Positions 13,511 through 29,134 are shown, numbered from the stretch's first letter. The stretch: DNA of 36,736 nucleotides from an uncultured Gammaproteobacteria bacterium (GCA_964406285.1 CAYORA010000004.1:1-36736); one strand, 5' to 3'. Translations and numbers: made by a program. The notes: generated by a model from the letters alone, not told the origin.

Positions 13511-13525
13511 TTATTTTTTCTTCGC
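13501..13525. terminator. hairpin GCGAAGA-N11-TCTTCGC enclosing both stop codons of a convergent gene pair (possible bidirectional terminator)
   Basis: 7-bp stem (13501-13507 and 13519-13525). The loop taattattttt contains TAA (+) and TTA (= TAA on the minus strand). T-rich sequence follows on the minus strand. Weak by canonical standards. Confidence 0.25.
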
Positions 13526-15033: not shown

Positions 15034-15921
15034 ATGAAAACAGAAAAAATAATTTGTCCAGTTTGTAATTCGAATGAAATAAAAATACTAAGACCAAGCG
15101 AAGTAAATCCAAAAAAAATCTCATTTACGTACAAATTTACAAAGGAAACTAAAAAAACCTTTCAAGTAAACAGATGTTCGAATTGTTCACATATTTTTTG
15201 TTACCCACTTCCTAAAAACATATATAAAAATTATAAAGATGTTGTAGATCAGGTTTATTTAAAATATTCTGAATCCAGAAAGCAATCTGCAGAAGAAATC
15301 TTAAAAAAATTAAATATGTATAAAAGCCATGGACGCATTCTTGATATAGGATGTGCTACGGGTGATTTTCTTCTTGTAGCGAAAGAAGCAGGTTATGAGG
15401 TTGAAGGATTAGAGCTTTCAAAATGGTCATCAAAAATCGCAGAAAAAAAAGGATTAAAAGTTTACAGAGATACAATGAAAGTTCTGTCAAAAAAATATCC
15501 ACGTCGTTATGATCTGATTACAATGTGGGGTGTAATTGAGCATTTCGAATATCCCTCTGAGGAAATGATTTATATTAACAAACTTCTTAAAAAAAATGGC
15601 ATACTTGCTCTTTGGACTGGAGATGTTGATAGTATTACCAGTAAATTATTAGGGAAGAATTGGTGGTATTGGCAAGGCCAACACATACAGTATTTTACTG
15701 GGAAAAGTATGGATATCCTAACAAAGAAGTCAGGTATTAAGCATTTGAAAACTTATTTATATCCTCAAGCAATGAATCTTAATCAACTAAATGATTCATT
15801 AAGAAGATATGCACATAGAAATTTAATTTTAGTTTTTATAAAGCCATTTTTTCTAATAAAACATATTTGGTATTTAAGAATTCCAGGGGAGATGTTATGG
15901 ATTGGAAGGAAAATTAAATAA
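15034..15921 (+). CDS. SAM-dependent methyltransferase with N-terminal 4-Cys zinc ribbon
   Basis: CPVCNS...CSNCSH, then SAM motif I ILDIGCATGDFL, YDLITMWGVIEHF, and LKKNGILALWTGD. Confidence 0.8.
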   Translation: MKTEKIICPVCNSNEIKILRPSEVNPKKISFTYKFTKETKKTFQVNRCSNCSHIFCYPLPKNIYKNYKDVVDQVYLKYSESRKQSAEEILKKLNMYKSHGRILDIGCATGDFLLVAKEAGYEVEGLELSKWSSKIAEKKGLKVYRDTMKVLSKKYPRRYDLITMWGVIEHFEYPSEEMIYINKLLKKNGILALWTGDVDSITSKLLGKNWWYWQGQHIQYFTGKSMDILTKKSGIKHLKTYLYPQAMNLNQLNDSLRRYAHRNLILVFIKPFFLIKHIWYLRIPGEMLWIGRKIK

Positions 15922-17664
15922 TTATTTTCTTTTAACAAATGCACGAAATAAAAATAGAAATAGAGCCGCAAAAACTCCAATACTTAAATATTTAAATTGT
16001 TTGTAAATACTTATGTCAGAATATTTTAGTTCAATTTTCTGCAGTCCTCTAGGAAGTTTCGCATTTATTACACCTCTTTCTCCCGGATAAATATTTACCT
16101 TTTTACCATTTGATCTCAGTTCCCATCCTGGATAAAAAAGTGTGTTTTCTTTTATTATTAAAGGAGTTTTTGCATCTATAATATAAATGTGCCTCGTGGA
16201 GTTTCTAGAAATTTCTTCTATGTCCGCTTGACCTTGCAGGATTTCTAAATGTGATTTTGGTAGCTCGGAAAACCAAAAATTATCATGATCTGCCCATTTA
16301 TTGTTTAAGAAATAAGCAACTCTTCCCTCGTCCTTTGTGCTCTCCCAAACATAATCTCGTAAATTTGCATCCGTAATTGTAGAAATTACTGTTCTATGAC
16401 CCCAGTTTAATATTGTATAGAGAACAGTGATAATTAAAAGCGCGTAAATTATTCTTTTTGTTTTAGCGTTATAGAAATTAAGTATAAAGAAGCCTGCAAG
16501 AACAGAAGTTGTAAATGCAATTGGTAAAAGGAGTCTTCCGGTTGGGGGGAACATCCAAAAGAGCGGAAATAATTTCCATATAAAAAATGATCCTGGGTGC
16601 ATTAGAAAAAGAAAAATAAAAAATAATACTAACCAAAAAATAAAATCCTTTTTGAATATTGGTTTTATTTTCTTCCTAAATAGCGCAATTATACTTATAA
16701 AAATAATTAATAATTGCGTGTATCCTATTATAAGAGCAAGCTCACCGTAATGACCTTGAAAAAGAAAACCTAATTTCCAGGGAGAGTAAAACAACTGATG
16801 AAATGGATAAAAATAAAGTTCACTACTTGGATATGGATAAATGTAAGGCGCATAAATAATGAATGAAGACCATAAGTAAATTGATGAAAGGCATCCAAGA
16901 ATAAGCATTGCTAAAATATTCATAAATTTTCTCTTACCTTTTCTAAGGCAATAAAAAACAGAGTATAAAAACATAATTCCTACAATTGTTAAAGCCATTA
17001 AGGGATGTGCCTGGAAAAGAATTGCAGTAAAAATTCCAAGTAGAATTAAATGAATTATTTGTTTTGAGTTAAAATACTTAATTAAGAAATAAAATGTAAG
17101 AGGGGCAAGTGTAAAAATGGTAGATTCGCCAAGGGTTGCGCGAAAATGGACATCAATAAGATGATAAGGATTAAAAATATAAAAAATTCCAGAAGAAAAT
17201 GCTGCAAGCCTATTATTAGTTAGGTCTTTTATAAATAAATACATAAAAATTCCTGAAAAAAATAAGCTTAAGCCCAAGTAAATTTTCATACTCAGAATAA
17301 AGCTGAAACCTAAAAAATGAAAAAAGGAAACCAAATAATATGGAAGGGAATAGTTAAAAATAAAGAGTGGATTTCCGTATGTTGCGTTTAATTCTCCCGC
17401 CCAAGAGGGAATTAGATTGCCCTCACGAAGAGAATCATAAAAAGCCATAATTCTATAAATGTGAACATTAAAATCTCCACTTTCATAATCACCTGGCCTC
17501 AAAAGGCTTAATAGCGGAAGAATCGAAACCAGAATCAAGATCTTGAAGAGACTTATTTCTTTTTTAGGATAAATATATTTATAAATTAAAAGTCCAACAG
17601 TTAATAATAAAATCCCAGTTATACTTAAGAGGACAGTTCTGTATGGATCAGAGAACATGAGCAT
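15922..17664 (-). CDS. large polytopic membrane protein, GT-C-like (YfhO/PTPS-related-like)
   Basis: About 14 hydrophobic segments followed by a C-terminal extracytoplasmic domain. The first loop has GDYESGDFNVHIYRIMAFYDSLREGNLIPSW...GNPLFIFNYSLPYY. Alternative start ATG 17658 lies 6 nt downstream of a TATAAT box. Confidence 0.55.
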   Translation of the reverse strand: MLMFSDPYRTVLLSITGILLLTVGLLIYKYIYPKKEISLFKILILVSILPLLSLLRPGDYESGDFNVHIYRIMAFYDSLREGNLIPSWAGELNATYGNPLFIFNYSLPYYLVSFFHFLGFSFILSMKIYLGLSLFFSGIFMYLFIKDLTNNRLAAFSSGIFYIFNPYHLIDVHFRATLGESTIFTLAPLTFYFLIKYFNSKQIIHLILLGIFTAILFQAHPLMALTIVGIMFLYSVFYCLRKGKRKFMNILAMLILGCLSSIYLWSSFIIYAPYIYPYPSSELYFYPFHQLFYSPWKLGFLFQGHYGELALIIGYTQLLIIFISIIALFRKKIKPIFKKDFIFWLVLFFIFLFLMHPGSFFIWKLFPLFWMFPPTGRLLLPIAFTTSVLAGFFILNFYNAKTKRIIYALLIITVLYTILNWGHRTVISTITDANLRDYVWESTKDEGRVAYFLNNKWADHDNFWFSELPKSHLEILQGQADIEEISRNSTRHIYIIDAKTPLIIKENTLFYPGWELRSNGKKVNIYPGERGVINAKLPRGLQKIELKYSDISIYKQFKYLSIGVFAALFLFLFRAFVKRK

Positions 17665-17681: not shown

Positions 17682-18935
17682 TTAAATTACTTCTACTTTT
17701 GGAAGAGGAAATATAAAATGGCCGCCTTTTTTAAGATAATTCTTTTCTCTTATTAAAAATTCTTCTCTAAAAAACCAAGGTAAAACGATCATGTAGTCAG
17801 GTTGGTTAATTCTAGCTTGTTCTTCGGAAATGATCGGAATTCCGACTGATGCGATGACTTTCCCATGTTTTTCAGTATTTCTTTCAACGGCGAATTTAAT
17901 AAGTGAATTATCAATTTCGAAATATTGAAGAAGAGTATTTCCTCGAGTAGATGCGCCATAAAGATATATCGTTTTTTTATCTTTTTGTAATTTTTGAATT
18001 AGGTTTAATAGTTCTTTTTTGTTAGCTTCAATTCTTTTTGCAAAATCCTTGTAGGTTTTTTTATTCTCCAGTTTTAACTCTTTTTCATTGTCTCTAACTT
18101 TTTGAACATTTTTCGAAATTTCTCTTTTCCCTTTTAAAGCGATATAAGTTCTAAAACTTCCACCGTTTAAAGCTCTCATTTCTACATCAAAAATTTCCAG
18201 CCCATGTCTGTCAAGAAGATTTGTTAACGATAAGAGCGAGTAATACTCGAGGTGCTCATGAACTATATTATCGAATGCGTTTAATTTAAGCATGCCTACT
18301 AAATAATTTTGCTGTATTACGAATATACCGTCTTCATTCATTATTTTTTTAACGTCTGAGACAAATTTATTTGGATCTTCCATGTCATAAAAACATGAAA
18401 TTGCTGTGACGATATCCATTTTTTTATTTTTTATTTTTTTTGAAAATGCTTCAAAACTAAAGAAGTCATTAATTACTTTATTAGAATATTTCTTACTTTC
18501 TATTGCAAATTTTTCAATTGGTTCTACTGCGATTCTATAAACATTTTTTGGATAATTGCTCAAAAGCGTACCGTCATTCGCACCGATGTCTACTACAGAA
18601 ATTTCTTTCAGTGGTTTCTTTATTTTTTTAAGTGATTCTTTAACGATTCCATTTAATTCATCTTTCATAGTTTTGTTAATTCCTGATTTATATCCATACC
18701 TTTCCGTGTATAGGGAGGACTTAGGGGTAGTATGTTTGAGTTGAAGCAAAAAGCATTTTTTGCATAGAACAAGAGTTAAGGGAAATGCTTTAGGTTTTCT
18801 TTTTGTTTTTAAGAAGTCTGAAAGATGAAGATTCCCAAGAGAAATAATTTCAACTAAATCCTTTGAGTTACAAGACCTGCATTTTTTAATCGAAAGAGAT
18901 TTGGGGGTGCTTTTTTTGTTTCGATTTTTTTGCAT
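17682..18935 (-). CDS. NDP-hexose C-methyltransferase (TylCIII/TcaB9-like three-domain architecture), paralog 1
   Basis: N-terminal Zn ribbon CRSCNS...LCKKCFLLQL, SAM motif VVDIGANDGTLL, conserved FDNIVHEHLEYYS, and a C-terminal Rossmann-like domain IYLYGASTRGNTLLQY...DYMIVLPWFF. Confidence 0.8.
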   Translation of the reverse strand: MQKNRNKKSTPKSLSIKKCRSCNSKDLVEIISLGNLHLSDFLKTKRKPKAFPLTLVLCKKCFLLQLKHTTPKSSLYTERYGYKSGINKTMKDELNGIVKESLKKIKKPLKEISVVDIGANDGTLLSNYPKNVYRIAVEPIEKFAIESKKYSNKVINDFFSFEAFSKKIKNKKMDIVTAISCFYDMEDPNKFVSDVKKIMNEDGIFVIQQNYLVGMLKLNAFDNIVHEHLEYYSLLSLTNLLDRHGLEIFDVEMRALNGGSFRTYIALKGKREISKNVQKVRDNEKELKLENKKTYKDFAKRIEANKKELLNLIQKLQKDKKTIYLYGASTRGNTLLQYFEIDNSLIKFAVERNTEKHGKVIASVGIPIISEEQARINQPDYMIVLPWFFREEFLIREKNYLKKGGHFIFPLPKVEVI

Positions 18936-18941
18936 GCAGAC

Positions 18942-18951
18942 ATAATATACA
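18942..18951 (-). promoter_or_regulatory. -10 region TGTATATTAT, 6-8 nt upstream of ATG 18935 (leaderless configuration)
   Basis: The minus strand reads ttTGTATATTATgtctgcATG. Confidence 0.4.
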
Positions 18952-19021
18952 AACCTAAATTAAATGACAAGATCGAATTCATATTTTATTTTAAGAAGTG
19001 TTAGACTATGCGTAAATAGTT

Positions 19022-19030
19022 TGCTAATAT
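19022..19030 (+). promoter_or_regulatory. extended -10 box TGcTAATAT, 12 nt upstream of rfbC ATG 19043
   Basis: tTGCTAATATacgaatcgttctATG. Confidence 0.45.
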
Positions 19031-19042
19031 ACGAATCGTTCT

Positions 19043-19567
19043 ATGAAATTTACTAAAACTAAGTTTAATGAATTACTGATAGTTGAAACAGATCAGTTTG
19101 ATGACGAAAGAGGATATTTGGCTAAATATTATGATGAAGATTTTTATAAAAAAAATAATATTAAATTTAAATTAACCCAAGTAAAATTTGTTTCCACCAA
19201 AACAAAAGCAACTATAAGAGGTCTTCACATGCAGTCAAAACCATATGAGGAGGCAAAAATTGTCAGATGTGTAAAAGGAAAAATATTTGAAGTTGCATTG
19301 GATTTAAGAAAAAACTCTAAAACTTATGGCAAGTGGTTTGGTCAGGAGTTTTCCGAAGATGATAAAAAATGTCTTTATATTCCTAAGGGTTTTGCGCATG
19401 GATACCAAACTCTTGTAAATAACACTGATGTCCTATATTTAATGTCAGGAGAATTTTCATTGCTACATAATATTGGCTATAGATGGAATGATCCCGCTTT
19501 TGGTATTTCCTGGCCCCTAAAACCAACTGTAATGGCCCAGAAAGATAAAAATTGGCCACTGGTATGA
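19043..19567 (+). CDS. rfbC: dTDP-4-dehydrorhamnose 3,5-epimerase
   Basis: DERGYL, RGLHMQ, KIVRCVKGKIFEVALDLRKNSKTYGKW, LYIPKGFAHGYQTL, and YRWNDPAFGISWP are canonical RmlC cupin motifs. Confidence 0.93.
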   Translation: MKFTKTKFNELLIVETDQFDDERGYLAKYYDEDFYKKNNIKFKLTQVKFVSTKTKATIRGLHMQSKPYEEAKIVRCVKGKIFEVALDLRKNSKTYGKWFGQEFSEDDKKCLYIPKGFAHGYQTLVNNTDVLYLMSGEFSLLHNIGYRWNDPAFGISWPLKPTVMAQKDKNWPLV

Positions 19568-20430
19568 CTGACTACTTAATTATTGGAAAAAATGGACAGC
19601 TTGGAAATGCTCTATTTGAAAATTTAACAAAACGTAATCAAAGTTTTGTGGCATATTCAAGGAAAGAATTAGATATAACTGATAAAAAATCACTAGTAAG
19701 AATATTGAAAAAAACCAAACCGAAAGCAATCATTAACACCTCTGCCTATCATGTAATTGGAGAGTGCGAAGAAAATCCACTTGAAGCGTTTAGAATTAAC
19801 TGCGTTAGTGTTGCAAATTTGGCAAGATTGTCAAAGGAGATTGGCTCTATTTTTGTTACATATAGCACTAATTATGTTTTTGATGGAGCAAAAAATTCTC
19901 TTTATCGGGAAGATGATAAAGCATATCCTTTGCAAATGTACGGGTTAAGTAAATATGCAGGGGAAATAAATGCTCTTAATGAATACAGTAAGGGAACTTA
20001 TGTCATAAGAACGTGTGGGATTTATGGAAATGGTAAGAAGGGTAGTAGGAGTAAAAAGGGGAACTTTATTTTAAAAATTTTAAATGAGTCAAAAAAAAGT
20101 GGGGAAATAAAAGTGAGTAAAAAACAAATAGTTAACCCGACATACGCATACGATTTAGCGAGCTCTACAGTTGATTTAATTAATCTAAAACCTGCTTCTG
20201 GAATTTATCATCTGGTAAATGAAGGAATTTGCAGTTGGTATGACTTTACTAAAATGATATTAAAATACAAAAAAATAAATGCCAAAGTAATAGCGCTGGG
20301 TAGTAAAGAGGAGAATACGGGATTTAAAAGGCCAACTTACTCTGCCATAGGAAACTATAAAGCGAAAAAACTTGGAGTGGTGCTTCCTCAAATTAATTCA
20401 GGACTGGAAAGATATCTAGATGAAATATAA
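19564..20430 (+). CDS. rfbD: dTDP-4-dehydrorhamnose reductase
   Basis: YLIIGKNGQLGNAL (Rossmann), INTSAYHVIGECEENPLEAFRINCVSVANLA, and YGLSKYAGE (catalytic YxxxK). ATG 19564 overlaps the rfbC stop as ATGA, so it is preferred over the track TTG at 19552. Confidence 0.9.
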   Translation: MTDYLIIGKNGQLGNALFENLTKRNQSFVAYSRKELDITDKKSLVRILKKTKPKAIINTSAYHVIGECEENPLEAFRINCVSVANLARLSKEIGSIFVTYSTNYVFDGAKNSLYREDDKAYPLQMYGLSKYAGEINALNEYSKGTYVIRTCGIYGNGKKGSRSKKGNFILKILNESKKSGEIKVSKKQIVNPTYAYDLASSTVDLINLKPASGIYHLVNEGICSWYDFTKMILKYKKINAKVIALGSKEENTGFKRPTYSAIGNYKAKKLGVVLPQINSGLERYLDEI

Positions 20431-20662
20431 AAATATATTTTTACTTACAGGGGTTTTTTATGTCTTATTTCTTTTAGTTTTTTTATATTCATTTAGATAC
20501 TTAAGAACTTTTTTTCCACCTGCGGAAATTTCGGATTATAAGATAATTGGCTATTCACATTATTATGGGTATCCGTTTTATTTTGATACGCTAGCATTCT
20601 TTATTATTGTCACCTTCCCTAGTCTAATATTTATTTTTTTATGGAGATTAAGAAAAAAATAA
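20420..20662 (+). CDS. small two-TM membrane protein, possibly the N-terminal part of the following gene
   Basis: 80-aa ORF with two hydrophobic helices. It overlaps rfbD by 11 nt and ends in A AAA AAA TAA, inside the start of the next ORF. Confidence 0.45.
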   Translation: MKYKNIFLLTGVFYVLFLLVFLYSFRYLRTFFPPAEISDYKIIGYSHYYGYPFYFDTLAFFIIVTFPSLIFIFLWRLRKK

Positions 20663-22614
20663 TTAGGAAAAATTATAAAGAAATTGGAATAATTTTAATA
20701 TTAAATCTTCTTGCAATTACGGTTAATGTTATTTCCCATTGTTCAGGTTATTTAAAATTTGCAAACTTTGATTATCAAGCATTTTTAGCTTGGAACTATG
20801 CTGCATTTACAGATTTAGTTCCCTATAGAGATTTGTATTATCCCTATGGACTTCTTTCCTACTATAAAGATAGTAATATTTTCTTTTTATTGCTTTATAT
20901 CTTCTTATCATTAATAACCATAAATTTACTGATTTTCACACTTATCCAAATATTTAGAAATAAATTTATAGCTTATTTTACGATAATTATGTTTTTCGCA
21001 TTCACTATTTTAATTTCAAATTTCAGTACTTTAAATAGATATGGAATTTCCACAGTATTTGCTTTAACTATATCCTACATATTTTACAAAGGAGTTAATA
21101 GTCGAAAATTTTATTTTGTTTCTGGCTTAATGCTCTCATCTATTTTTTGGTTAGTACACGATCAGGGAATTTTTGGATTAATAATTTTTGTCTTTTTTTA
21201 TTTATTTAGAAAGGTTAGTGAATACAAAAATAAAGAAAAGACAAATCTTTTAAAATCAGTACTAAATGACTCATTATATTTTTTAACAGGTTTTTTGGTG
21301 GGTCTTATTCCATTTATTATTTATCTAACAAAAAACAGCGCATTAACAGATTTCTGGTATTTTTTAACAGTAAGCCTCCCGGAATTTCCCGTTATGTCAA
21401 AGACTCCATTCTTTAATTTGTTTTTTTCGGTAAATAATATTTTTACTGTTGGAGTTTTATCTCTATCAATTCTTTTTTTAGTTTATAAATTATTAAATAA
21501 AGAAAAGATTGCGCTCTTTACCTACACGGAGATTTCATTAACGTTAACCTTACTCCTTTTAGAACAAAAGAACATTGTCAGATTAATGGAGCATGCAATT
21601 ACTTTTGTTGCGTTTATTCTTTTTGCAATTATATTATGGGAAGTTTTAAAGTTAAAAATAATAACTGAAAAAACAAAGAAAAAAATTTACCTAATGACGT
21701 TATTTTTAATTTTGATATTTTTTTACTTTCCATATGGAAATCGTTCAGGGATCAACTCCGCTTCAGATTTAAAAATTAAACCATTAAATTGCTACGCATC
21801 TAATATTAATAAAGCAAAAAACCTCGATGAATATCAAAGAGTTGTTGAAGGTTTAAGCAAATATAAAAACTTTAATAATAAAATATTTAGTTTTCCAGGG
21901 GATCCAATTTTCTATATTCTTTTAAATCAAAAACTTCCTTTTTACCCTAGTGTTTATGAAGCATCTTCTGAAAAGTCACAGTTCCAGGTAATTAAATATT
22001 TGAAAAACGAGGATATTAAATATGTCGTAATTAACAGTGAGAATAAGTCAATTCAAGACGAAGTGCCAAATTATATTAGGGCTACTTATGAATTGAGATA
22101 CATTCTTAATAATTATGTCTTTAGGGATAAGATCGGCAAATTTTTAATACTAGAAAAGAAAGAAAATACTGATTTTTTTACAAAGCTAAATGATCCTTTA
22201 GTTGCTGAGTATCAAAAATTTCTTCTTAATATAAATTTGGAATCGGTCCCTTATTCAGAAGGTTTACATAAGAATAAAATTATTACAGATAAAAAGAATA
22301 AATTTTTAACGGAAGATTTAAGTCAAGCAAAGACAAACGAATATCTTAAAAATAATAAAACTAATTCGAGCAATCTTTTCCTACTTATTAAAAATAAAAG
22401 CTCTAATGATTATTATTCGTTAAAATTTAGGACAGTTGATGGTTTTGAGACAAATGTAAAAATGAAATCGTGCAAAGAAAACTACTGTATAGTTAACTTA
22501 TCAAGGTTACCTTTATTTTATAAAATGCGAGAAATTCAAAGCATCAGATCAAAAGACGAAATTTTAGTAAGCATTTTAATGCCATCAAATGATAATATTA
22601 CGAAGCTATGGTAA
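20641..22614 (+). CDS. polytopic membrane protein with large C-terminal extracytoplasmic domain (GT-C-like or polymerase-like, family unknown)
   Basis: About 12 hydrophobic segments in the first ~370 aa. The first loop is aromatic/acidic: FDYQAFLAWNYAAFTDLVPYRDLYYPYG. About 280 hydrophilic residues follow. I recognise no specific family. Confidence 0.55.
   Translation: MEIKKKIIRKNYKEIGIILILNLLAITVNVISHCSGYLKFANFDYQAFLAWNYAAFTDLVPYRDLYYPYGLLSYYKDSNIFFLLLYIFLSLITINLLIFTLIQIFRNKFIAYFTIIMFFAFTILISNFSTLNRYGISTVFALTISYIFYKGVNSRKFYFVSGLMLSSIFWLVHDQGIFGLIIFVFFYLFRKVSEYKNKEKTNLLKSVLNDSLYFLTGFLVGLIPFIIYLTKNSALTDFWYFLTVSLPEFPVMSKTPFFNLFFSVNNIFTVGVLSLSILFLVYKLLNKEKIALFTYTEISLTLTLLLLEQKNIVRLMEHAITFVAFILFAIILWEVLKLKIITEKTKKKIYLMTLFLILIFFYFPYGNRSGINSASDLKIKPLNCYASNINKAKNLDEYQRVVEGLSKYKNFNNKIFSFPGDPIFYILLNQKLPFYPSVYEASSEKSQFQVIKYLKNEDIKYVVINSENKSIQDEVPNYIRATYELRYILNNYVFRDKIGKFLILEKKENTDFFTKLNDPLVAEYQKFLLNINLESVPYSEGLHKNKIITDKKNKFLTEDLSQAKTNEYLKNNKTNSSNLFLLIKNKSSNDYYSLKFRTVDGFETNVKMKSCKENYCIVNLSRLPLFYKMREIQSIRSKDEILVSILMPSNDNITKLW
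20653..20662 (+). other. A AAA AAA heptamer in X XXY YYZ register immediately followed by TAA (candidate -1 frameshift or homopolymer-error site)
   Basis: ORF 20420 reads aga aaa aaa taa. The -1 frame is exactly the frame of ORF 20641 (aaa aaa ata att). Confidence 0.35.
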
Positions 22615-23345
22615 AGGCAAAAAATATTTGTTTAGTAATTCCTGCTTATAATGAGTCAAAGAACATTCCGTTGGTTGTTAAAGGAATTAGGAAAGAATTT
22701 CCAAATTCCAGAATTATTGTCGTTGATGATTCACTTGAGCCTGAAAGTAACAAAACTAGAGGTGCATTAAAAGGATTTAGGAATCTTGACGTTATTTCAA
22801 GGAAGAAAAAACTTGGGAGAGGGAGTGCAGTGTTAGAAGGTTTTAAATACGGATTAAAATATAAAAACGCTAAATATTTCTATGAAATAGATGCTGATTT
22901 TTCACATGACACAACACACCTGATTAGATTTATGAAGAAAATGAATGAAGAAAAAGTAGGGATGGTTATTGGTTCGCGATATACGAAAGGAGGAAAATCT
23001 TTAAATGTGACTTTGAAGAGAAAATTACTTAGCAAGATGATAAATAAATTTCTATTCGTAATGCTCGATGTAAGATTGTCTGATTACACATCTGGATACA
23101 GACTATATGAAAGAAAAGCAGTTGAATATTTAGCAAAAGCGAAAATGAAATCTTCAGGGTTTATAACGCTTTCAGAAATAACATACAAGTTAAATAAAAA
23201 AGGTTTTAAAATAGGTGAGGTTCCTGTTACTATTTCTACAAGAAAATACGGTAAATCAACAATGGGTCTTCATGAGTTGACTACATCTCTTTTGTTTATT
23301 CTAAAAATGAAAATTGAAGAAGAGTATTTGACTAAATTAAAATAA
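22608..23345 (+). CDS. DPM1-like polyprenyl-phosphate glycosyltransferase (GT2)
   Basis: LVIPAYNESKNI, IIVVDDS, EIDADFSHDTTHL, GSRYTKGG, DYTSGYRLYE, TRKYGKSTM. Overlaps the upstream membrane-protein gene by 7 nt. Confidence 0.88.
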   Translation: MVKAKNICLVIPAYNESKNIPLVVKGIRKEFPNSRIIVVDDSLEPESNKTRGALKGFRNLDVISRKKKLGRGSAVLEGFKYGLKYKNAKYFYEIDADFSHDTTHLIRFMKKMNEEKVGMVIGSRYTKGGKSLNVTLKRKLLSKMINKFLFVMLDVRLSDYTSGYRLYERKAVEYLAKAKMKSSGFITLSEITYKLNKKGFKIGEVPVTISTRKYGKSTMGLHELTTSLLFILKMKIEEEYLTKLK

Positions 23346-23347
23346 AC

Positions 23348-24586
23348 TCAAACTATTTGAGGGGTCGGGATTGCTAAAATAAATTTTCCTCCATTTTTTC
23401 GAAAAGTGTGTTCTCTTTGAAGTATTGCGTGACTATAGTTCCATACTAATAATAAATAATAATCTGGTCTTTTTTTCTCTGTACCGGTAACTGGTATATG
23501 GGTACCGGGAGTGTAGAGGCCAAATTTATATTCAGTTCTGTCTAAAATATAATCCAGATAATTTGTGTTTATACCGCAGTAATTAAGCAGCGTATTTGAT
23601 TTCGCAGAAGCACCATATCCAGCAATAGAGTACCCTTCTTTTTTTAAATTTTCTAGAATATTCACAAGCTTATTTTTAATGTAATTCACACGGCTCGGCA
23701 TTCCTTTATAGGTGTTTAGTTCTTGAAGTCCAATTTCTTTTTCATTTCTTAGCATTTGGTTAACACTTTTTTTCACTTTTCTGTTATTTGATGAATGAGT
23801 AATATAAAATCTTATCGATCCTCCTTGCGTGTCGTGTTCCTCCACATCAATAATTTTAAGTCCAATTTTTTTTACTAACATATTTAATGGAGAAAGAGAA
23901 AAGAAGGAGCGATGTTCATGATAAACATTGTCAAATTGATTATTAAATAATAAAAACGGAAAATACTGACATTCAATTACTGCAATACCATTTTTTGAGA
24001 GCATTATTTTTATTCCATTTATAAAATCCTTAGGATCTGTTACGTGAGCTATAACATTATTTGCGATTATTATCCCAGCTTTTCCTTTTTCTTCAGAAAT
24101 TTTTTTTGCTGTGCTGCTATTAAAAAAATATGGGAGAGTTTCTATCTTTTGGCTATTTGCATAATCAACTACGTTTTTAGCGGGATCAATTCCTAGAATT
24201 TTACATCCTGCTTTTTGAAAATGTTTAAGTAATGTACCATCATTGCTTGCAACTTCTAAAGTGAAATTTTTCGCTTCTTTTGGAAATCTTTCGAGAACGT
24301 CCATTGCATATTTTTTGAAATATGGAATTGACGATGGGGAGCCACCTGTATAAAAAGCATAATTATTTCCAAATAAGAGTTCATCATTTACATCATGTTT
24401 TAGTTGAACTAAAAAGCACGATTTACAAACTACTACTATTAATGGGAATTTTTTTTCTTTTACATCGGGAGATTTTATAAATAAATCTGCAAGTGGCATT
24501 TTGCCTAAATCTAAAACCTGAAGGAGCCTTTTACTTCCACAAATCCTACACTCATTTCTTTCCTTTACAAGTTTATTAAGTTTCAT
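23348..24586 (-). CDS. NDP-hexose C-methyltransferase (TylCIII/TcaB9-like), paralog 2
   Basis: Zn ribbon CRICGSKRLLQVLDLGKMPLADLF...VCKSCFLVQL, SAM motif LEVASNDGTLL, FDNVYHEHRSFFS, and C-terminal IAGYGASAKSNTLLNY...DYYLLLVWNY. Confidence 0.85.
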   Translation of the reverse strand: MKLNKLVKERNECRICGSKRLLQVLDLGKMPLADLFIKSPDVKEKKFPLIVVVCKSCFLVQLKHDVNDELLFGNNYAFYTGGSPSSIPYFKKYAMDVLERFPKEAKNFTLEVASNDGTLLKHFQKAGCKILGIDPAKNVVDYANSQKIETLPYFFNSSTAKKISEEKGKAGIIIANNVIAHVTDPKDFINGIKIMLSKNGIAVIECQYFPFLLFNNQFDNVYHEHRSFFSLSPLNMLVKKIGLKIIDVEEHDTQGGSIRFYITHSSNNRKVKKSVNQMLRNEKEIGLQELNTYKGMPSRVNYIKNKLVNILENLKKEGYSIAGYGASAKSNTLLNYCGINTNYLDYILDRTEYKFGLYTPGTHIPVTGTEKKRPDYYLLLVWNYSHAILQREHTFRKNGGKFILAIPTPQIV

Positions 24587-24684: not shown

Positions 24685-25554
24685 ATGAAAAATAAACCTC
24701 TCGTTACAATAATTACACCCACCTATAACAGGGCCCCATTTTTAAAAGAAACTATCCTAAGTGTTCTAAATCAGAATTACAAAAATATTGAATATATTAT
24801 TCTTGATGGAGACTCATCAGATAACACTAGAGAAGTTGTTGGGGAATTTGGTAAAAAAGTTATCTTTGACTCGCATAAAAACAAGGGAGAGCAATATGCC
24901 GTTAATAAAGGATTGAAAATGGCAAAAGGAGAAATAATTGGCATAATTAATTCAGATGATCCAATGCTTCCTGGAGCAGTTAGTGAAGTAGTAAAAGTAA
25001 TGACGGAAAACCCAAAACTGGTGGGTGTTTATTCAGACTGGATAAAAATTGATGAAAAAGGTAAAAAAATCGATAAAGTAATTCTTCCCGAATATAGCCT
25101 TTCATATATGCTAAAAAATTATAATATGACACCTGGTCCAATTACTTTTTATCGAAAAGAGGTAATTAAGAAATTAAAAAAGAGAGATGAAAAGTTTAAA
25201 TATGTAAGCGATTTTGATTTTGTGCTTAGAGCTGCTTTGATTGGAGACTTTAAGCGCATTCCTAAGTTCCTGGGAGCTTTTAGGATTCATAAAGGCGCTG
25301 CTACGCTAAGGCACAGAGGGCTAGAAATGGCCATGGGGCATTTTAGGCTTTTGAATAAGATATATTCACTGCCTAATATTCCCGATGAGGCAATTAGAGT
25401 AAAAAAACAAGCTTATTTTAAGGCAGGGGAGGCAGCAAGAATATCCCGAGGAGAAAATCCTATTACCAAAATTATTGTTTCTTTGGTTTGTCTGTATTAT
25501 TCGCCTGTGCTTTACCTAAAGCTCTTTATTTCCCATAGATTAAAAGGCATTTAG
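24685..25554 (+). CDS. GT2-family glycosyltransferase
   Basis: VTIITPTYNRAPFLKETILSVLNQNY, ILDGDSSDNT, and INSDD (DxD) are typical of GT2. Confidence 0.85.
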   Translation: MKNKPLVTIITPTYNRAPFLKETILSVLNQNYKNIEYIILDGDSSDNTREVVGEFGKKVIFDSHKNKGEQYAVNKGLKMAKGEIIGIINSDDPMLPGAVSEVVKVMTENPKLVGVYSDWIKIDEKGKKIDKVILPEYSLSYMLKNYNMTPGPITFYRKEVIKKLKKRDEKFKYVSDFDFVLRAALIGDFKRIPKFLGAFRIHKGAATLRHRGLEMAMGHFRLLNKIYSLPNIPDEAIRVKKQAYFKAGEAARISRGENPITKIIVSLVCLYYSPVLYLKLFISHRLKGI

Positions 25555-25606: not shown

Positions 25607-26572
25607 ATGAAAAAAAAGGAAAAAGTATTAGTAACTGGCGGAGGAGGATTTATTGGTCATCATCTGGCAAGATTTTTAAAAAAAAACGGCTACTATGTGC
25701 GTGCCGCAGATATTGTTTATCCACAATTTTCTGATCTCTCAGATTTTGATGATTTTAGGATTTTAGATTTAAGAGATTTCAGGAATGCAATTGAAGCGAC
25801 TGAAGGAATCACTCATGTATACGCACTTGCAGCGCAAAATGGGAGCATTGAGTACACGATTACAAATAAAGCAGATTTACTTAGAGATAATGCATTAATT
25901 AACCTGAATACCGCAGAAGCATCAATTAGAAATGGCGTTAAGCGATTGTTTTTTTCATCTTCAGCATGTGTTTATCCGGAGAATAAGCAAACAGAAGTAG
26001 ACTCGACACCACTTAAAGAAAACGACGTATATCCTGCAAATCCTGACAGCGAATATGGTTGGGAAAAATTATTTTCTGAAAGAATGTATAAATCTTACGA
26101 GGTGGATCATGGTCTTGAGGTAAGAATAGCAAGATTTTTTAATATTTATGGAGCTGAGTGCCTAATTGATACACTAAGATCGAAAGCTCCAATGGCTCTA
26201 ACTCGAAAAGTGATCGAGGCAGGAAATGGTGGAACAGTTAAGATTTGGGGGGATGGTAAGCAGGTCAGGTCATTCTGCTATATAGATGATTGCGTAGAGG
26301 CAATATATAAACTAATGCACTCTAACATTAAAGACCCCGTTAATATTGGAACTGCTGATCATGTTAGTATAAATGAGTTGGTTGACATTATTTGTAAGAT
26401 TGAAGGGATAAAAGTTAAGAAGGTTCATCAATTGAATAAGATTCAAGGGGTAAGAGGAAGGCTCTGTGATTTTTCTAAAGCACAAAAGGAACTAAGGTGG
26501 AAAGCAAAAGTAACCCCGGTTGAGGGAATGACTGTTATTAATAAATTTGTACATAAACAGCTCGGAAAATAA
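25607..26572 (+). CDS. NDP-sugar epimerase of the extended SDR family, GDP-mannose 3,5-epimerase-like
   Basis: VLVTGGGGFIGHHL, SSSACVYPENKQ, YPANPDSEYGWEKLFSERMYKSY (YxxxK), RIARFFNIYG, KIWGDGKQVRSFCYIDDCVEA, and IQGVRGR. This string of motifs closely follows plant/bacterial GME as I recall it. Confidence 0.7.
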   Translation: MKKKEKVLVTGGGGFIGHHLARFLKKNGYYVRAADIVYPQFSDLSDFDDFRILDLRDFRNAIEATEGITHVYALAAQNGSIEYTITNKADLLRDNALINLNTAEASIRNGVKRLFFSSSACVYPENKQTEVDSTPLKENDVYPANPDSEYGWEKLFSERMYKSYEVDHGLEVRIARFFNIYGAECLIDTLRSKAPMALTRKVIEAGNGGTVKIWGDGKQVRSFCYIDDCVEAIYKLMHSNIKDPVNIGTADHVSINELVDIICKIEGIKVKKVHQLNKIQGVRGRLCDFSKAQKELRWKAKVTPVEGMTVINKFVHKQLGK

Positions 26573-26593: not shown

Positions 26594-29134
26594 ATGAAGA
26601 CAACTTTAATCACAACTGTTTTTAACGAAGAAAAAAATATTGAAAAATTTTTTAAGTCACTTTTTGCCCAAACAAAGCTTCCAGATGAGGTAATTATTGT
26701 AGATGGGGGGAGTAGAGATAAAACTGTTGAAAAACTAAACGAAGTTATAAAAAAGAAAAAAAATAAGTCCCAAGTAAAAATTCTACAAAAAAAAGGAAAT
26801 AGATCTAAGGGAAGGAACTTTGCAATCGAAAATTCCTCTAACGAAATAATTTTAGCTACAGACTTTGGCTGTGTTCTTGATAAGAATTGGGTTAAGTTTG
26901 TTTCAGCGCCTTTTAAGGATAAACAAATTGATGTCGTGTCTGGTTATTATAAGCCATTTGCAGATTCTATTTTCAAAAAGTGTCTAGCGACATATACATG
27001 TGTTATGCCGGATAAAATTAAAGAAAATAATTTTCTTCCATCTTCGCGTTCCATTGCTTTTAGGAAAAAAGTTTGGCAAAGAATTAAATATCCAGAATGG
27101 TTAGATACTTGTGAGGATTTGGTATTCGCAAAAAAACTTAAGGAAAAAAAATATAATTTTGAATTTGTTCGCGAAGCGGTTGTTTTTTGGGAACAGAAAA
27201 ATAATTTTAAAGAAGCTTTTTTTCAATTCTTAAATTATGCAAAAGGGGATGGTAGGGCATTCTACATCAGGCCTCAAGTTCCGTTAATTTATCTCAGATA
27301 TTTTCTAGGAATTTATTTTTTATTTCTCAGTTTTCTTGAAAGATCGGTAACTGGATTATTAATGATTCCGGTGTTTATGTTTATGTATTTTTTGTGGAGT
27401 ATAAAGAAAAACTATAAATACATAAAAAAAAGAAAAGCTTTCTTGATTCTTCCCGCATTGCAAATTCTTTCTGATTTTGCTGTTTTAATCGGGACTACTT
27501 TTGGGCTATTAAAAAGAGTAAATCTAAAAAGAATATTCTCAATTATTAAAAATAATAAATTCATAGTTTTTATAAATTTTATTTATTTAATTCTAATGCT
27601 TCTAACCATAGATTATGGAATTCCAAATAAATTTCACCCATTCCCATATCATATGGATGAGTGGCATCAGCTCCAAGCGGTTAGATCTACTTTTGCATAT
27701 GGAACTCCAAACGTAGAAGGGTCAGCTAATGGAACTATGCTTCATTTCTTGATTTCTGGATTTTATTTAATTCCTTTTACATTGCTTGGCATAATAAATC
27801 CATTTGAGCTGAAAATTGATAATTTTATAAACCGTGAGAATATATTTCTTATATTAAGATTTAACACTATTATATGGGGAATTTTATCGATAACGTTAAT
27901 TTATAAAATAGCTGAAAGTTTAAAGATTTCTAAAAGACTAACAGCAGTTCTTTTTACATTTAATCCTATATGGTTAATGTTGAGTGGTCATTTTAAATAC
28001 GATATTTCACTGATGTTTTTTATATTGCTAAGTATATTTTTTATGTTGAGATATTCTAAAAATCCAACAATCACTAACTTCATAGCTGCAGGTGTTGCGG
28101 TCGGTTTAGCGCTGGCAGTAAAAATAAGTGTTTTACCCTTAATTCCGATTTATTTTTTATCCTTCTTAATATTTCATGAAAATAAAATAAAAAATACAAA
28201 AGTTTTGTTTGTAGGTTTTCTAGCTCTTGTAGCAACAGCCCTTCTGTTTGGTTTTCCTGATACGTTATTTGGTACAGGAAATATTTATAGATATTTATAT
28301 GAGAATTTAATTATATTTCCTTCAGCATCCAGTAATTTCAGATCTGATGGAAATGCTCTTTTATATGTTTTCTTAAAACACTACTCGATAATTTTTGGAT
28401 ATGGATTATTTACTCTTTTTATCTTTTCATTGCCGATTTTGGTTTTAAATATCTTAAAAGGTGGCGGGAGATATATTATTAAGAATAAAACTGAAGCTTT
28501 TTTTATCGCTTCTTTTCTATTGTTTTTATCAAGTCTTGTTACTCTTAAAGCGTATAGTGGAGGAAATAGGGCATTGGTTTTGTTGCCTTTTATAGCTATT
28601 TTAGTTTCCTATGTATGGAGTAATCTGTCAAAAAGAAATTATGGCTGGTTTGTAGGTCTTTTTGTATTTGCAATGGTGATAGTTCAAGTCTATTTTTCAT
28701 TAACATGGACGGATATACGAAACACTAAGAGTATTCAAGCTGAATCTTCAGAATGGATTGAGAAATATGTTCCTGATAATTCTTTAATTGGCCTAGAAAA
28801 CATTCCAATCTATCAAAATATTCCGGACATTTTACAAAAAGAATTCTATTTTCATGAGTATAATGTGGGCTCTAAGAATCGATATGAGTATCAGATTGTT
28901 GATAGTGATAGCTCTAAGTTCCCAAAAGTAATCGTTATAACTAATAGCGATGTCGAAAGAGAAATTTTATATAAATCCCAGAAAACAGAGCTTATTGATA
29001 GGTTGAAGAAGGAAGGATATAGGGAAGTTAAGGTCTTTAAACAAAATACAGAAAAATTATATCTTTCAGATAAAGACTATGTTGTTGCTGGATTAATTTC
29101 CTCTCCTCTAACTATAGCCATTTATAAACGCTAA
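26594..29134 (+). CDS. fusion protein: N-terminal GT2 domain plus TM linker plus C-terminal GT-C (ArnT/PMT-like) domain
   Basis: aa 1-225: LITTVFNEEKNI, VIIVDGGSRDKT, and ATDFGC (GT2). aa ~225-310: hydrophobic hairpins. aa ~310-846: at least 10 TM segments with the first-loop motif PYHMDEWHQLQAVRS, then a C-terminal soluble domain. The ORF is uninterrupted. Confidence 0.75.
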   Translation: MKTTLITTVFNEEKNIEKFFKSLFAQTKLPDEVIIVDGGSRDKTVEKLNEVIKKKKNKSQVKILQKKGNRSKGRNFAIENSSNEIILATDFGCVLDKNWVKFVSAPFKDKQIDVVSGYYKPFADSIFKKCLATYTCVMPDKIKENNFLPSSRSIAFRKKVWQRIKYPEWLDTCEDLVFAKKLKEKKYNFEFVREAVVFWEQKNNFKEAFFQFLNYAKGDGRAFYIRPQVPLIYLRYFLGIYFLFLSFLERSVTGLLMIPVFMFMYFLWSIKKNYKYIKKRKAFLILPALQILSDFAVLIGTTFGLLKRVNLKRIFSIIKNNKFIVFINFIYLILMLLTIDYGIPNKFHPFPYHMDEWHQLQAVRSTFAYGTPNVEGSANGTMLHFLISGFYLIPFTLLGIINPFELKIDNFINRENIFLILRFNTIIWGILSITLIYKIAESLKISKRLTAVLFTFNPIWLMLSGHFKYDISLMFFILLSIFFMLRYSKNPTITNFIAAGVAVGLALAVKISVLPLIPIYFLSFLIFHENKIKNTKVLFVGFLALVATALLFGFPDTLFGTGNIYRYLYENLIIFPSASSNFRSDGNALLYVFLKHYSIIFGYGLFTLFIFSLPILVLNILKGGGRYIIKNKTEAFFIASFLLFLSSLVTLKAYSGGNRALVLLPFIAILVSYVWSNLSKRNYGWFVGLFVFAMVIVQVYFSLTWTDIRNTKSIQAESSEWIEKYVPDNSLIGLENIPIYQNIPDILQKEFYFHEYNVGSKNRYEYQIVDSDSSKFPKVIVITNSDVEREILYKSQKTELIDRLKKEGYREVKVFKQNTEKLYLSDKDYVVAGLISSPLTIAIYKR

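What the first reader, a model, noticed from the sequence alone, without database searches (positions are those of the whole stretch)
17682..24586. Two TylCIII/TcaB9-type sugar C-methyltransferase paralogs flanking rmlC-rmlD: a branched-chain 6-deoxyhexose in a surface glycan?
ORFs 17682..18935 and 23348..24586 both show the three-domain layout of NDP-hexose C-methyltransferases: a 4-Cys ribbon (CxxC...CxxC followed by LxQL), a SAM domain, the conserved FDN[IV]xHEH motif, and a C-terminal nucleotide-sugar-binding domain. They are only distantly related to each other, which suggests different substrates or positions. They bracket rmlC (3,5-epimerase) and rmlD (4-reductase). C-methylated deoxysugars are best known from actinomycete antibiotics (mycarose, noviose and similar) and a few unusual LPS sugars such as Coxiella virenose. 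Here they sit inside an envelope-glycan locus. rmlA and rmlB are not in the window, so the 4-keto-6-deoxy substrate must be supplied from elsewhere or by another route. With the two other methyltransferase domains (13511, 15034), the glycan is predicted to be heavily methylated.
Basis: partly seen in the sequence, partly recalled or inferred. Interest (0 to 1): 0.62.

Follow-up and report, generated by a model that had tools for sequence, protein, structure and literature searches.

The report
Two sugar C-methyltransferases, CPR glycan locus
An uncultured ultra-small bacterium (Levybacteria) has, in its cell-surface sugar gene cluster, two distantly related enzymes of the family that adds methyl branches to activated sugars; they probably work on two different sugar carriers, which is a sound annotation of a widespread family and not a surprise.

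Summary
ORFs 17682-18935 (MT1) and 23348-24586 (MT2) both have the Zn-ribbon, SAM and C-terminal domain layout of NDP-4-keto-hexose C-methyltransferases. Both match MtmC, TcaB9 and KijD1 over their full length and are 33% identical to each other. The window is a whole contig of a 0.93 Mb Levybacteria (CPR) genome. That genome supplies both 4-keto substrates from other contigs: rmlA-like and rmlB, and ManC-like, gmd and an Rmd-like reductase.

The refinement is that the two enzymes belong to different subfamilies with different partners. MT2 is canonical (His181/Tyr222), groups with the solved enzymes, and recurs elsewhere as an MT2-rmlD-rmlC-GT2 module. MT1 belongs to a large clade with Asp181 and a non-aromatic residue at 222. 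Outside Levybacteria this clade lies next to gmd or an Rmd-like gene, or is fused to a Gmd-family domain. MT1 therefore most likely methylates GDP-4-keto-6-deoxy-mannose, and its position beside rmlCD is specific to this lineage. Within Levybacteria MT1 travels with Wzx, a Dpm1-like GT2, a GT2-GT-C fusion and a GT-C-like protein.

Regiochemistry (C3 or C5), carrier and product are all untested. The family is very large (12,435 clusters at 50% identity), so these are new members of a known kind.

The parts
17682..18935 (-). MT1: Zn-ribbon/SAM/PF08484 sugar C-methyltransferase of the Asp181/Val222 (gmd-linked) subfamily. Predicted GDP-4-keto-6-deoxy-D-mannose C-methyltransferase.
   Evidence: Pfam layout. 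PDB MtmC 1.1e-56. The four Zn cysteines, Tyr76, Glu224 and His225 are kept, but His181 is Asp and Tyr222 is Val, invariant in 120/120 close homologues. Clade members lie beside gmd or are fused to Gmd-family domains.
23348..24586 (-). MT2: canonical TylCIII/MtmC/TcaB9-type NDP-4-keto-hexose C-methyltransferase. Predicted to act with RmlC/RmlD on a dTDP-4-keto-6-deoxyhexose.
   Evidence: Pfam layout. PDB MtmC 1.5e-90, KijD1 3e-73, TcaB9 6e-70. All five probed active-site residues are kept. The MT2 clade groups with the solved enzymes (support 0.907). Orthologues sit in an MT2-rmlD-rmlC-GT2 module.
19043..19567 (+). rmlC: dTDP-4-dehydrorhamnose 3,5-epimerase family cupin.
   Evidence: PF00908 2.5e-53. 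TIGR01221 164.7 bits, above the 155.75 cut-off. A second, lower-scoring copy is on contig C36.
19552..20430 (+). rmlD: dTDP-4-dehydrorhamnose reductase family.
   Evidence: PF04321 2.6e-71. TIGR01214 250.7 bits, above the 224.05 cut-off.
20641..22614 (+). 657-aa polytopic membrane protein with no Pfam match. Possibly a GT-C-like transferase or polymerase.
   Evidence: No Pfam or NCBIfam hit. About 8 hydrophobic segments. Orthologues recur in related loci.
22608..23345 (+). Dpm1/PpgS-like GT2: candidate polyprenyl-phosphate sugar synthase. It is a conserved neighbour of MT1-type genes in Levybacteria.
   Evidence: PF00535. Best NCBIfam hits are PpgS (84 bits), AglJ and ArnC-type models, all below cut-off. 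Adjacent to MT1 in 22 of 47 Levybacteria loci.
15922..17664 (-). 580-aa polytopic membrane protein, GT-C-like (weak PMT_2 hits in orthologues). Part of the conserved MT1 cassette.
   Evidence: About 11 hydrophobic segments. Orthologues carry weak PF13231 hits. It recurs with MT1 in most Levybacteria loci.
24685..25554 (+). GT2 glycosyltransferase, divergent from MT2.
   Evidence: PF00535 2.4e-29.
25607..26572 (+). GDP-mannose 3,5-epimerase (GME)-like SDR. Its presence suggests the locus draws on a GDP-mannose pool.
   Evidence: PDB 2c59 (Arabidopsis GME) 1.7e-72, 247.5 bits; the next non-GME family scores 112.6 bits.
26594..29134 (+). GT2 - GT-C (PMT_2) fusion protein. Conserved partner of MT1-type genes in Levybacteria.
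   Evidence: PF00535 plus PF13231. Within 4 kb of MT1 in 34 of 47 Levybacteria loci.
29155..30378 (+). Wzx/MOP-family flippase. Conserved partner of MT1-type genes in Levybacteria.
   Evidence: PF13440 5.2e-75. MOP flippase model 186.8 bits, below the 273 cut-off. Adjacent to MT1 in 30 of 47 loci.
13511..14935 (-). GT2 fused to a class I SAM methyltransferase domain.
   Evidence: PF00535 plus PF08241.
15034..15921 (+). Stand-alone class I SAM methyltransferase.
   Evidence: PF13489 1.9e-24.

Best explanation
The locus encodes two functional SAM-dependent C-methyltransferases. Each is predicted to methylate a carbon next to the 4-keto group of a nucleotide-activated 4-keto-6-deoxyhexose, in two separate pathways that feed one envelope-glycan locus of a Levybacteria (CPR) cell.

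(1) MT2 is a canonical TylCIII/MtmC-type enzyme. It would take dTDP-4-keto-6-deoxy-glucose, made by the rmlA-like and rmlB genes on contig C5. Together with the adjacent RmlC (epimerase) and RmlD (4-reductase) it would give a dTDP-C-methyl-6-deoxy-L-hexose of the 3-C-methyl-L-rhamnose type, or a 5-C-methyl noviose-type sugar.

(2) MT1 belongs to a separate subfamily with Asp181 and a non-aromatic residue at 222. It would take GDP-4-keto-6-deoxy-D-mannose, made by the ManC-like gene on C31 and gmd on C5. After 4-reduction, most plausibly by the Rmd-like SDR next to gmd, it would give a GDP-6-deoxy-C-methyl-D-hexose.

The methylated sugars are then used by the many glycosyltransferases of the locus. 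MT1's conserved neighbours are a Dpm1-like GT2, a Wzx flippase, a GT2-GT-C fusion and a GT-C-like membrane protein. This suggests delivery through a polyprenyl-phosphate carrier to transferases on the outer face of the membrane.

Shown here: family membership, the active-site residue pattern, the presence of supply genes in the genome, and the conserved gene neighbourhoods and fusions. Inferred: nucleotide carrier, regiochemistry (C3 or C5), order of steps, product and acceptor.
For: Architecture and full-length similarity to solved C3-methyltransferases. The Zn-Cys4 site, Tyr76, Glu224 and His225 are conserved in both proteins. MT2 keeps His181 and Tyr222. MT1 has Asp181 and Val222, invariant in 120/120 close homologues. 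PDB mutant sequences confirm that these are the positions crystallographers probed: 4e2w H181N, 4e2x Y222F, 4e30 H181N/E224Q.

In the tree the MT2 clade groups with MtmC, TcaB9 and KijD1 (0.907). The MT1 clade is separate (0.912 and 0.972), with gmd-adjacent archaeal, proteobacterial and Chloroflexota members branching basally. A gmd gene that keeps the catalytic S-S/T-E, YxxxK and FNHES motifs lies in the fetched locus of 16 Asp181-clade genes, and within 2.5 kb of 15 of them, out of about 29 Asp181-clade loci outside Levybacteria. Rmd-like genes lie beside three more, within 2.5 kb, and a fourth is about 4 kb away.

An unbiased HMMER search gave the same picture. Nearly all of the 150 nearest 50%-identity representatives have Asp at 181 and Cys, Val, Gly or Ser at 222. 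Of 40 long representatives, 22 carry a GDP_Man_Dehyd domain. All 10 tested match TIGR01472 gmd over its full length at 158-412 bits.

The genome holds the supply genes: rmlB at 486 bits (above cut-off), rmlA-like at 243 bits, gmd at 454.5 bits (above cut-off), an Rmd-like SDR (PDB 2pk3, 2.9e-75) and a ManC-like gene (TIGR01479, 222 bits). MT2 orthologues (66-75% identity) sit next to rmlD-rmlC-GT2 in three other lineages without MT1. The Levybacteria cassette Wzx-MT1-GT2(dpm)-GT2/GT-C-U580 is seen.
Against: There is no biochemical evidence for any member of either CPR clade. In this genome gmd and rmd are on a different contig from MT1, and the genes physically next to MT1 are rmlC and rmlD. 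In two other loci (L020, L026) an RmlC-like cupin also sits beside MT1. RmlC-type cupins can act on GDP-sugars, so adjacency does not settle the carrier.

The window's rmlC and rmlD are the best-scoring copies in the genome and may simply make dTDP-L-rhamnose. The MT2 clade carries Ala in place of the first Gly of SAM motif I (119/120), and the effect of that is unknown. One MT2 orthologue (L101) has a different SDR and no rmlC.

The 80 genome loci were found with peptide patterns that included FDNIVHEH, which biases position 222 in that set. The unbiased search corrects this but carries no context or taxonomy. The fused SDR domains are all below the gmd equivalog cut-off, and a few lack the catalytic Glu. 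Their step (dehydratase or reductase/oxidoreductase) is therefore unclear.
Confidence: 0.6

Rival explanations
1. Both methyltransferases act in a single dTDP pathway with the RmlC and RmlD encoded between them. One version is sequential methylation at C3 and C5 of one dTDP-4-keto-6-deoxyhexose. Another is two alternative dTDP products. This is the picture the first reader implied.
For: All four genes are adjacent in the window and in its three nearest relatives, L017, L019 and L021. rmlA-like and rmlB are present in the genome. Every biochemically studied family member I know of uses dTDP-sugars (own knowledge; the PDB entries).
Against: MT1-type genes occur without rmlC or rmlD in about 40 of 47 Levybacteria loci. 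Outside Levybacteria they are next to gmd or Rmd-like genes, or fused to Gmd-family domains. MT2 orthologues keep rmlD-rmlC without MT1. MT1's sugar-pocket residues differ from those of the dTDP enzymes.
Confidence: 0.15
2. rmlC-rmlD are simply the genome's dTDP-L-rhamnose genes and have no functional link to either methyltransferase. MT2 would then use another 4-keto sugar and another reductase.
For: The window's RmlC and RmlD are the only copies above the equivalog cut-offs. The other copies score 140.3 and 180 bits, below cut-off. A rhamnosyltransferase-like GT2 sits at 11679-12509. One MT2 orthologue (L101) is followed by a different SDR and has no rmlC.
Against: The MT2-rmlD-rmlC-GT2 arrangement recurs in L097, L100 and L102, in otherwise different surroundings. 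That is hard to explain without a functional link. The noviose and mycarose pathways use exactly this enzyme trio (own knowledge).
Confidence: 0.2
3. MT1, with Asp181 and Val222, is not a C-methyltransferase. It could be an O- or N-methyltransferase on a nucleotide sugar, or a non-catalytic paralogue.
For: Two of the five residues probed in TcaB9 are replaced. No member of this clade has been characterised, to my knowledge.
Against: The Glu224-His225 pair, Tyr76, the Zn site and SAM motif I (VDIGANDG) are invariant, and the clade is under strong purifying selection at 67-78% identity over more than 120 clusters. The tight linkage to gmd, which makes the 4-keto group that carbanion chemistry needs, fits C-methylation.
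Confidence: 0.07

Closest known systems
MtmC (mithramycin D-mycarose 3-C-methyltransferase, PDB 4rv9), TcaB9 (3ndi) and KijD1 (5t64); by extension TylCIII/EryBIII
   Same: The same three-domain architecture, Zn-Cys4 site and Glu-His catalytic pair, with full-length alignment. MT2 also keeps His181 and Tyr222 and groups with these enzymes in the tree.
   Different: Those enzymes act on dTDP-2,6-dideoxy or 3-amino-2,3,6-trideoxy-4-keto sugars in actinomycete antibiotic pathways. Here there is no 2,3-dehydratase or aminotransferase in the locus, and the setting is a surface glycan of a CPR bacterium. MT1 replaces His181 with Asp and Tyr222 with Val and is linked to GDP-mannose enzymes.
Proposed GDP-virenose pathway of Coxiella burnetii (gmd CBU_0689, C-methyltransferase CBU_0691, Fcl-like CBU_0688; PMC3539893)
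   Same: The logic is the same: Gmd makes GDP-4-keto-6-deoxy-mannose, a TylCIII-family enzyme C-methylates it, and an SDR reduces it for a surface polysaccharide.
   Different: The Coxiella pathway is itself only an in-silico proposal. CBU_0691 is reported as 44% identical to TylCIII (PMC3539893), so it probably belongs to the canonical group and not the Asp181 clade. I could not test this because no sequence was available. Here gmd and rmd are unlinked to MT1.
Noviose pathway NovW/NovU/NovS (RmlC-like 3-epimerase, C5-methyltransferase, RmlD-like reductase) of novobiocin (own knowledge)
   Same: The same gene trio as MT2, RmlC and RmlD, starting from dTDP-4-keto-6-deoxy-glucose without 2-deoxygenation.
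   Different: NovU methylates C5. Whether MT2 or MT1 resembles NovU could not be tested, because no NovU sequence was reachable with these tools.
Lipid-carrier glycosylation systems (GtrA/GtrB/Gtr, ArnC/ArnT, CsbB/YfhO)
   Same: MT1's conserved neighbours are a Dpm1-like GT2, a flippase and GT-C-type membrane proteins.
   Different: No component has been tested. The GT2 lacks predicted transmembrane helices. The acceptor is unknown.

Membership tests
NDP-4-keto-hexose C-methyltransferases (TylCIII/TcaB9/MtmC/KijD1; PF08421+SAM+PF08484) | Three-domain architecture: N-terminal Zn ribbon, class I SAM domain, PF08484 C-terminal nucleotide-sugar domain | tested here: met
   Both proteins hit PF08421, PF13489 and PF08484 above the gathering cut-offs.
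NDP-4-keto-hexose C-methyltransferases (TylCIII/TcaB9/MtmC/KijD1; PF08421+SAM+PF08484) | Full-length sequence similarity to structurally and biochemically characterised members | tested here: met
   MT1: 4rv9 at 1.1e-56, residues 15-416. MT2: 4rv9 at 1.5e-90, residues 11-412.
NDP-4-keto-hexose C-methyltransferases (TylCIII/TcaB9/MtmC/KijD1; PF08421+SAM+PF08484) | Four Zn-ligand cysteines | tested here: met
   All four are conserved in MT1, MT2 and both clades.
NDP-4-keto-hexose C-methyltransferases (TylCIII/TcaB9/MtmC/KijD1; PF08421+SAM+PF08484) | Glu224-His225 catalytic pair and Tyr76 (TcaB9 numbering; roles from my memory of Bruender & Holden 2012) | tested here: met
   Y, E and H are conserved in both proteins and in at least 119/120 of each clade.
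NDP-4-keto-hexose C-methyltransferases (TylCIII/TcaB9/MtmC/KijD1; PF08421+SAM+PF08484) | His181 and Tyr222 lining the sugar pocket | tested here: not met
   MT2 has His and Tyr. MT1 has Asp and Val, invariant in its clade. So MT1 belongs to the Pfam family but not to the canonical TylCIII/TcaB9 subgroup.
NDP-4-keto-hexose C-methyltransferases (TylCIII/TcaB9/MtmC/KijD1; PF08421+SAM+PF08484) | SAM motif I (E/D-I/V-G-x-N-x-G) | tested here: inconclusive
   MT1 has VDIGANDG, which is intact. MT2 has LEVASNDG, with Ala for the first Gly, a change found across its clade in 119/120.
NDP-4-keto-hexose C-methyltransferases (TylCIII/TcaB9/MtmC/KijD1; PF08421+SAM+PF08484) | SAM-dependent methyl transfer to C3 (or C5) of an NDP-4-keto sugar | not testable with these tools
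   This needs an enzyme assay with LC-MS and NMR.
Asp181, gmd-linked C-methyltransferase subfamily (defined here) | Asp at TcaB9 position 181 and a non-aromatic residue at 222 | tested here: met
   MT1 has D and V. Nearly all of the 150 nearest 50%-identity representatives have D181 with C, V, G or S at 222.
Asp181, gmd-linked C-methyltransferase subfamily (defined here) | Adjacent to or fused with a Gmd or Rmd-family SDR | tested here: not met
   In this genome gmd and the Rmd-like gene are on contig C5, not next to MT1. Linkage holds for other clade members. The genome does encode ManC-like, gmd and Rmd-like genes.
dTDP-L-rhamnose pathway enzymes RmlC and RmlD | Score above the NCBIfam equivalog cut-off | tested here: met
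   TIGR01221 164.7 bits against a cut-off of 155.75; TIGR01214 250.7 bits against 224.05.
NovU-type C5-methyltransferases | Closer relationship to NovU/CloU/CouU than to the C3 enzymes | not tested
   No NovU sequence was obtainable. The literature search found nothing usable.

The most novel reading that the evidence does not exclude
MT1-type enzymes (Asp181, with a small or aliphatic residue at 222) form a large, biochemically uncharacterised branch of the sugar C-methyltransferase family that is specific for GDP-sugars. The branch spans CPR bacteria, Chloroflexota, Proteobacteria and ammonia-oxidising Thaumarchaeota. On this reading the Levybacterium displays two different C-methyl-branched 6-deoxyhexoses, made on two different nucleotide carriers (GDP and dTDP). 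At least one would be delivered through a polyprenyl-phosphate carrier to GT-C transferases on the outer face of the membrane.
Probability: 0.35. Interest if true: 0.5.

Novelty: new member of a known kind. Interest (0 to 1): 0.33.

Why it matters
CPR/Patescibacteria envelopes are almost unstudied chemically. This locus predicts that Levybacteria decorate their surface with C-methyl-branched deoxysugars, a sugar class best known from antibiotics and a few O-antigens. The practical value is a cleaner annotation. The two 'class I SAM-dependent methyltransferases' are not redundant. One is a canonical dTDP-type enzyme tied to rmlC and rmlD. The other belongs to a distinct Asp181 clade tied to the GDP-mannose/Gmd route. 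That clade also occurs in ammonia-oxidising archaea and in a Pelagibacteraceae genome. This gives a simple, testable biochemical prediction and two residues to mutate. It does not change any general concept, because the family is very large and similar gmd-C-MT modules occur in many genomes.

Tried and rejected
(1) I tried to read the TcaB9 and KijD1 mechanism papers by DOI, but they are not held. Residue roles therefore rest on my memory, supported by the mutant PDB sequences.

(2) Literature searches for GDP-sugar C-methyltransferases and for NovU returned only the in-silico virenose paper and irrelevant hits.

(3) I tested whether the 159-aa ORF between rmlB and rmlD' on contig C5 is a hidden RmlC. 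It is a NUDIX protein.

(4) I followed a lead from earlier notes that the Gmd partner of such methyltransferases lacks the dehydratase Glu. That is not the case here. The genome's own gmd and all gmd genes next to Asp181-clade members keep S-S/T-E, YxxxK and FNHES. Only a few fused or distant partners lack the Glu (P0273, P0275, P0354, L093, L094), and P0294 has Asp at that position.

(5) I considered a natural-product (antibiotic) role and rejected it. The surroundings are glycosyltransferases, a flippase and GT-C proteins, with no PKS or NRPS.

(6) I did not run structure prediction. Full-length HMMER matches already settle the fold, and the tool returns no coordinates with which to inspect the pocket.

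Full report
**What is there.** The window is the whole of contig C4 of a 0.93 Mb, 69-contig genome that is about 90% complete. The closest loci in named genome records are Candidatus Levybacteria / Levyibacteriota MAGs, so the organism is a CPR/Patescibacteria bacterium. Positions 1-10 kb carry housekeeping genes: an AcrB-like gene, IleRS, FtsW, L21, ParB and signal peptidase. From about 10.3 kb to the contig end lies a lower-GC glycan locus (0.27-0.31 against 0.35-0.38). It is full of GT2, GT4, GT17 and PMT_2/GT-C-like genes and carries a Wzx flippase.

ORF 17682-18935 (MT1, 417 aa) and ORF 23348-24586 (MT2, 412 aa) each carry PF08421 (Zn ribbon), a class I SAM domain and PF08484. Both align over their whole length with the solved sugar 3-C-methyltransferases MtmC (4rv9), TcaB9 (3ndi) and KijD1 (5t64). 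The MtmC E-values are 1.1e-56 for MT1 and 1.5e-90 for MT2. The two proteins are 33% identical and are the only PF08484 genes in the genome. Between them lie four genes:
- rmlC (TIGR01221, 164.7 bits, above cut-off);
- rmlD (TIGR01214, 250.7 bits, above cut-off);
- a 657-aa membrane protein with about 8 transmembrane segments and no family match;
- a Dpm1/PpgS-like GT2.

**Substrate supply.**
- Contig C5 carries rmlA-like (243 bits, below cut-off), rmlB (486.7 bits, above cut-off), a NUDIX gene, a second rmlD-like gene, ugd, an SDR whose best PDB match is the GDP-6-deoxy-D-lyxo-4-hexulose reductase Rmd (2pk3, 2.9e-75), gmd (454.5 bits, above cut-off) and a UXS-like gene.
- A ManC-like guanylyltransferase is on C31 (TIGR01479, 222 bits over the transferase half).
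- The SDR at 25607-26572 in the window is a GDP-mannose 3,5-epimerase homologue (2c59, 247.5 bits; next non-GME family 112.6 bits).

Both dTDP-4-keto-6-deoxy-glucose and GDP-4-keto-6-deoxy-mannose can therefore be made.

**The two paralogs are different kinds.** I aligned both proteins, 240 close homologues and the three PDB enzymes. The four Zn cysteines, Tyr76, Glu224 and His225 (TcaB9 numbering) are conserved everywhere. His181 and Tyr222 are kept in MT2 and its clade (120/120). In MT1 and its clade they are replaced by Asp and Val (120/120). These are positions that the TcaB9 crystallographers mutated: the deposited mutant chains show H181N (4e2w), Y222F (4e2x) and H181N/E224Q (4e30). In a FastTree of 126 sequences the MT2 clade groups with MtmC, TcaB9 and KijD1 (support 0.907). 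MT1 falls in a separate Val222 group (0.912), and within it in an Asp181 clade (0.972). The MT1 clade is highly conserved, with more than 120 clusters (90% identity) at 67% identity or higher. Its pocket motifs AISCFYDMEDPN, VIQQNYL and NAFDNIVHEHLEYY are near-invariant.

**Context of the MT1 clade.** I fetched 80 genome loci and annotated them against this genome's own proteins.
- In Levybacteria the recurrent cassette is Wzx, MT1, Dpm1-like GT2, GT2-GT-C fusion and a 580-aa GT-C-like protein. Of 47 loci, Wzx is adjacent in 30, the GT2 in 22 and the fusion is nearby in 34.
- rmlC is near MT1 in 5 of these loci and rmlD in 3, all of them the window's nearest relatives or L020/L026.
- Outside Levybacteria, Asp181-clade members occur in Chloroflexota, Nealsonbacteria, Kofleriaceae, a gammaproteobacterial MAG, Pelagibacteraceae and many Nitrososphaera/Nitrosopumilus-type archaea.
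- Of about 29 such loci, 16 hold a gmd gene, and in 15 it lies within 2.5 kb of the methyltransferase gene. Three more (L067, L079, L091) have an Rmd-like SDR within 2.5 kb, and L065 has one about 4 kb away.
- Those gmd genes keep the catalytic S-S/T-E, YxxxK and FNHES motifs.

The locus search used peptide patterns that included FDNIVHEH, so I also ran an unbiased HMMER search of 1.84 billion representatives. It found 12,435 hits at E<=1e-3. Nearly all of the 150 nearest have Asp181, and position 222 is Cys, Gly, Ser or Val. Forty of the 150 are long proteins, and 22 of those carry a GDP_Man_Dehyd domain. All ten tested match the gmd model end to end at 158-412 bits, below the equivalog cut-off. 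Such fusions are classic evidence that two activities act in one pathway. MT1 is therefore best read as a GDP-4-keto-6-deoxy-mannose C-methyltransferase. Its position next to rmlC-rmlD is a rearrangement specific to this lineage.

**Context of MT2.** Orthologues at 66-75% identity in three other contigs (L097, L100, L102) show MT2 convergent with rmlD-rmlC, followed by a small GT2, with no MT1-type gene nearby. A fourth (L101) has a different SDR instead. This is the same enzyme trio as the noviose (NovU/W/S) and late mycarose steps (own knowledge). MT2 with RmlC and RmlD most likely converts dTDP-4-keto-6-deoxy-glucose into a C-methyl-6-deoxy-L-hexose. A caveat is that the MT2 clade has Ala for the first Gly of SAM motif I.

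**What remains inferred.** The nucleotide carrier, C3 or C5 regiochemistry, stereochemistry, the reductase used after MT1, and the acceptor are all unproven. I could not include NovU, TylCIII, EvaC or Coxiella CBU_0691 in a tree. The virenose paper reports CBU_0691 as 44% identical to TylCIII, which suggests it belongs to the canonical group (PMC3539893).

**How unusual.** About 10% of sampled genomes of the phylum (29/301) have a family member. The family is very large. Earlier notes of this scan describe similar gmd-C-MT(-rmd) modules and multi-paralog CPR loci in other genomes. I treated these notes as leads only. I tested the gmd link independently, and I also tested the 'Glu-less Gmd' idea, which does not apply to this genome. 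The finding is a sound annotation of new members of a known enzyme family. The useful refinement is two subfamilies on two carriers, and interest is modest.

Noticed in passing
window 25607-26572: The SDR is a clear homologue of plant-type GDP-mannose 3,5-epimerase (PDB 2c59, 247.5 bits; next non-GME family 112.6 bits). This predicts GDP-L-galactose or GDP-L-gulose as a further donor for the glycan.
   Followed up: partly
G000 contig C5:13200-20600 (L011:7213-14559): A nucleotide-sugar supply island: rmlA-like, rmlB, NUDIX, rmlD-like, ugd, Rmd-like reductase (PDB 2pk3, 2.9e-75), gmd and a UXS-like gene, followed by a GT2 and a PMT_2 protein.
   Followed up: partly
L096:720-2726, and representatives P0247, P0256, P0279, P0368 and others: Intein or LAGLIDADG insertions interrupt some of these sugar-pathway genes. 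A roughly 340-aa insert splits the FNHES|PRRG motif of a gmd in an Omnitrophota MAG. Five of 40 long MT1-subfamily representatives carry LAGLIDADG or intein domains that split the methyltransferase.
   Followed up: no
window 23348-24586 and its clade: The MT2 clade has Ala instead of the first glycine of SAM-binding motif I (E[IV]ASNDG, 119/120). This is unusual for class I methyltransferases.
   Followed up: no
L017-L019, L021, L024, L029, L030 and other loci (record titles): Many MAG records holding this Levybacteria-type locus are titled 'uncultured Gammaproteobacteria bacterium'. The gene content (small CPR-type genomes, the same synteny as named Levybacteria) suggests the titles are placeholder mislabels.
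   Followed up: no
L012:2038-3303 (= L021): The nearest complete relative has a third PF08484 paralog (421 aa, canonical His/Tyr type) next to another RmlD-like gene. L102 has three paralogs. Copy number is variable within the lineage.
   Followed up: partly
L099:1-12000: A Parcubacteria MT2-like gene sits in a cluster with a GHMP kinase, an NTP-transferase, SIS (GmhA-like) genes and a Gmd-family SDR. This suggests C-methylation of a GDP-heptose-derived 4-keto sugar.
   Followed up: no
window 20420-20662: A small 80-aa ORF with two hydrophobic segments overlaps the start of the 657-aa membrane protein gene and ends in an A-rich run (AGAAAAAAATAA). It may be a separate small membrane subunit or a mis-called start.
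   Followed up: no
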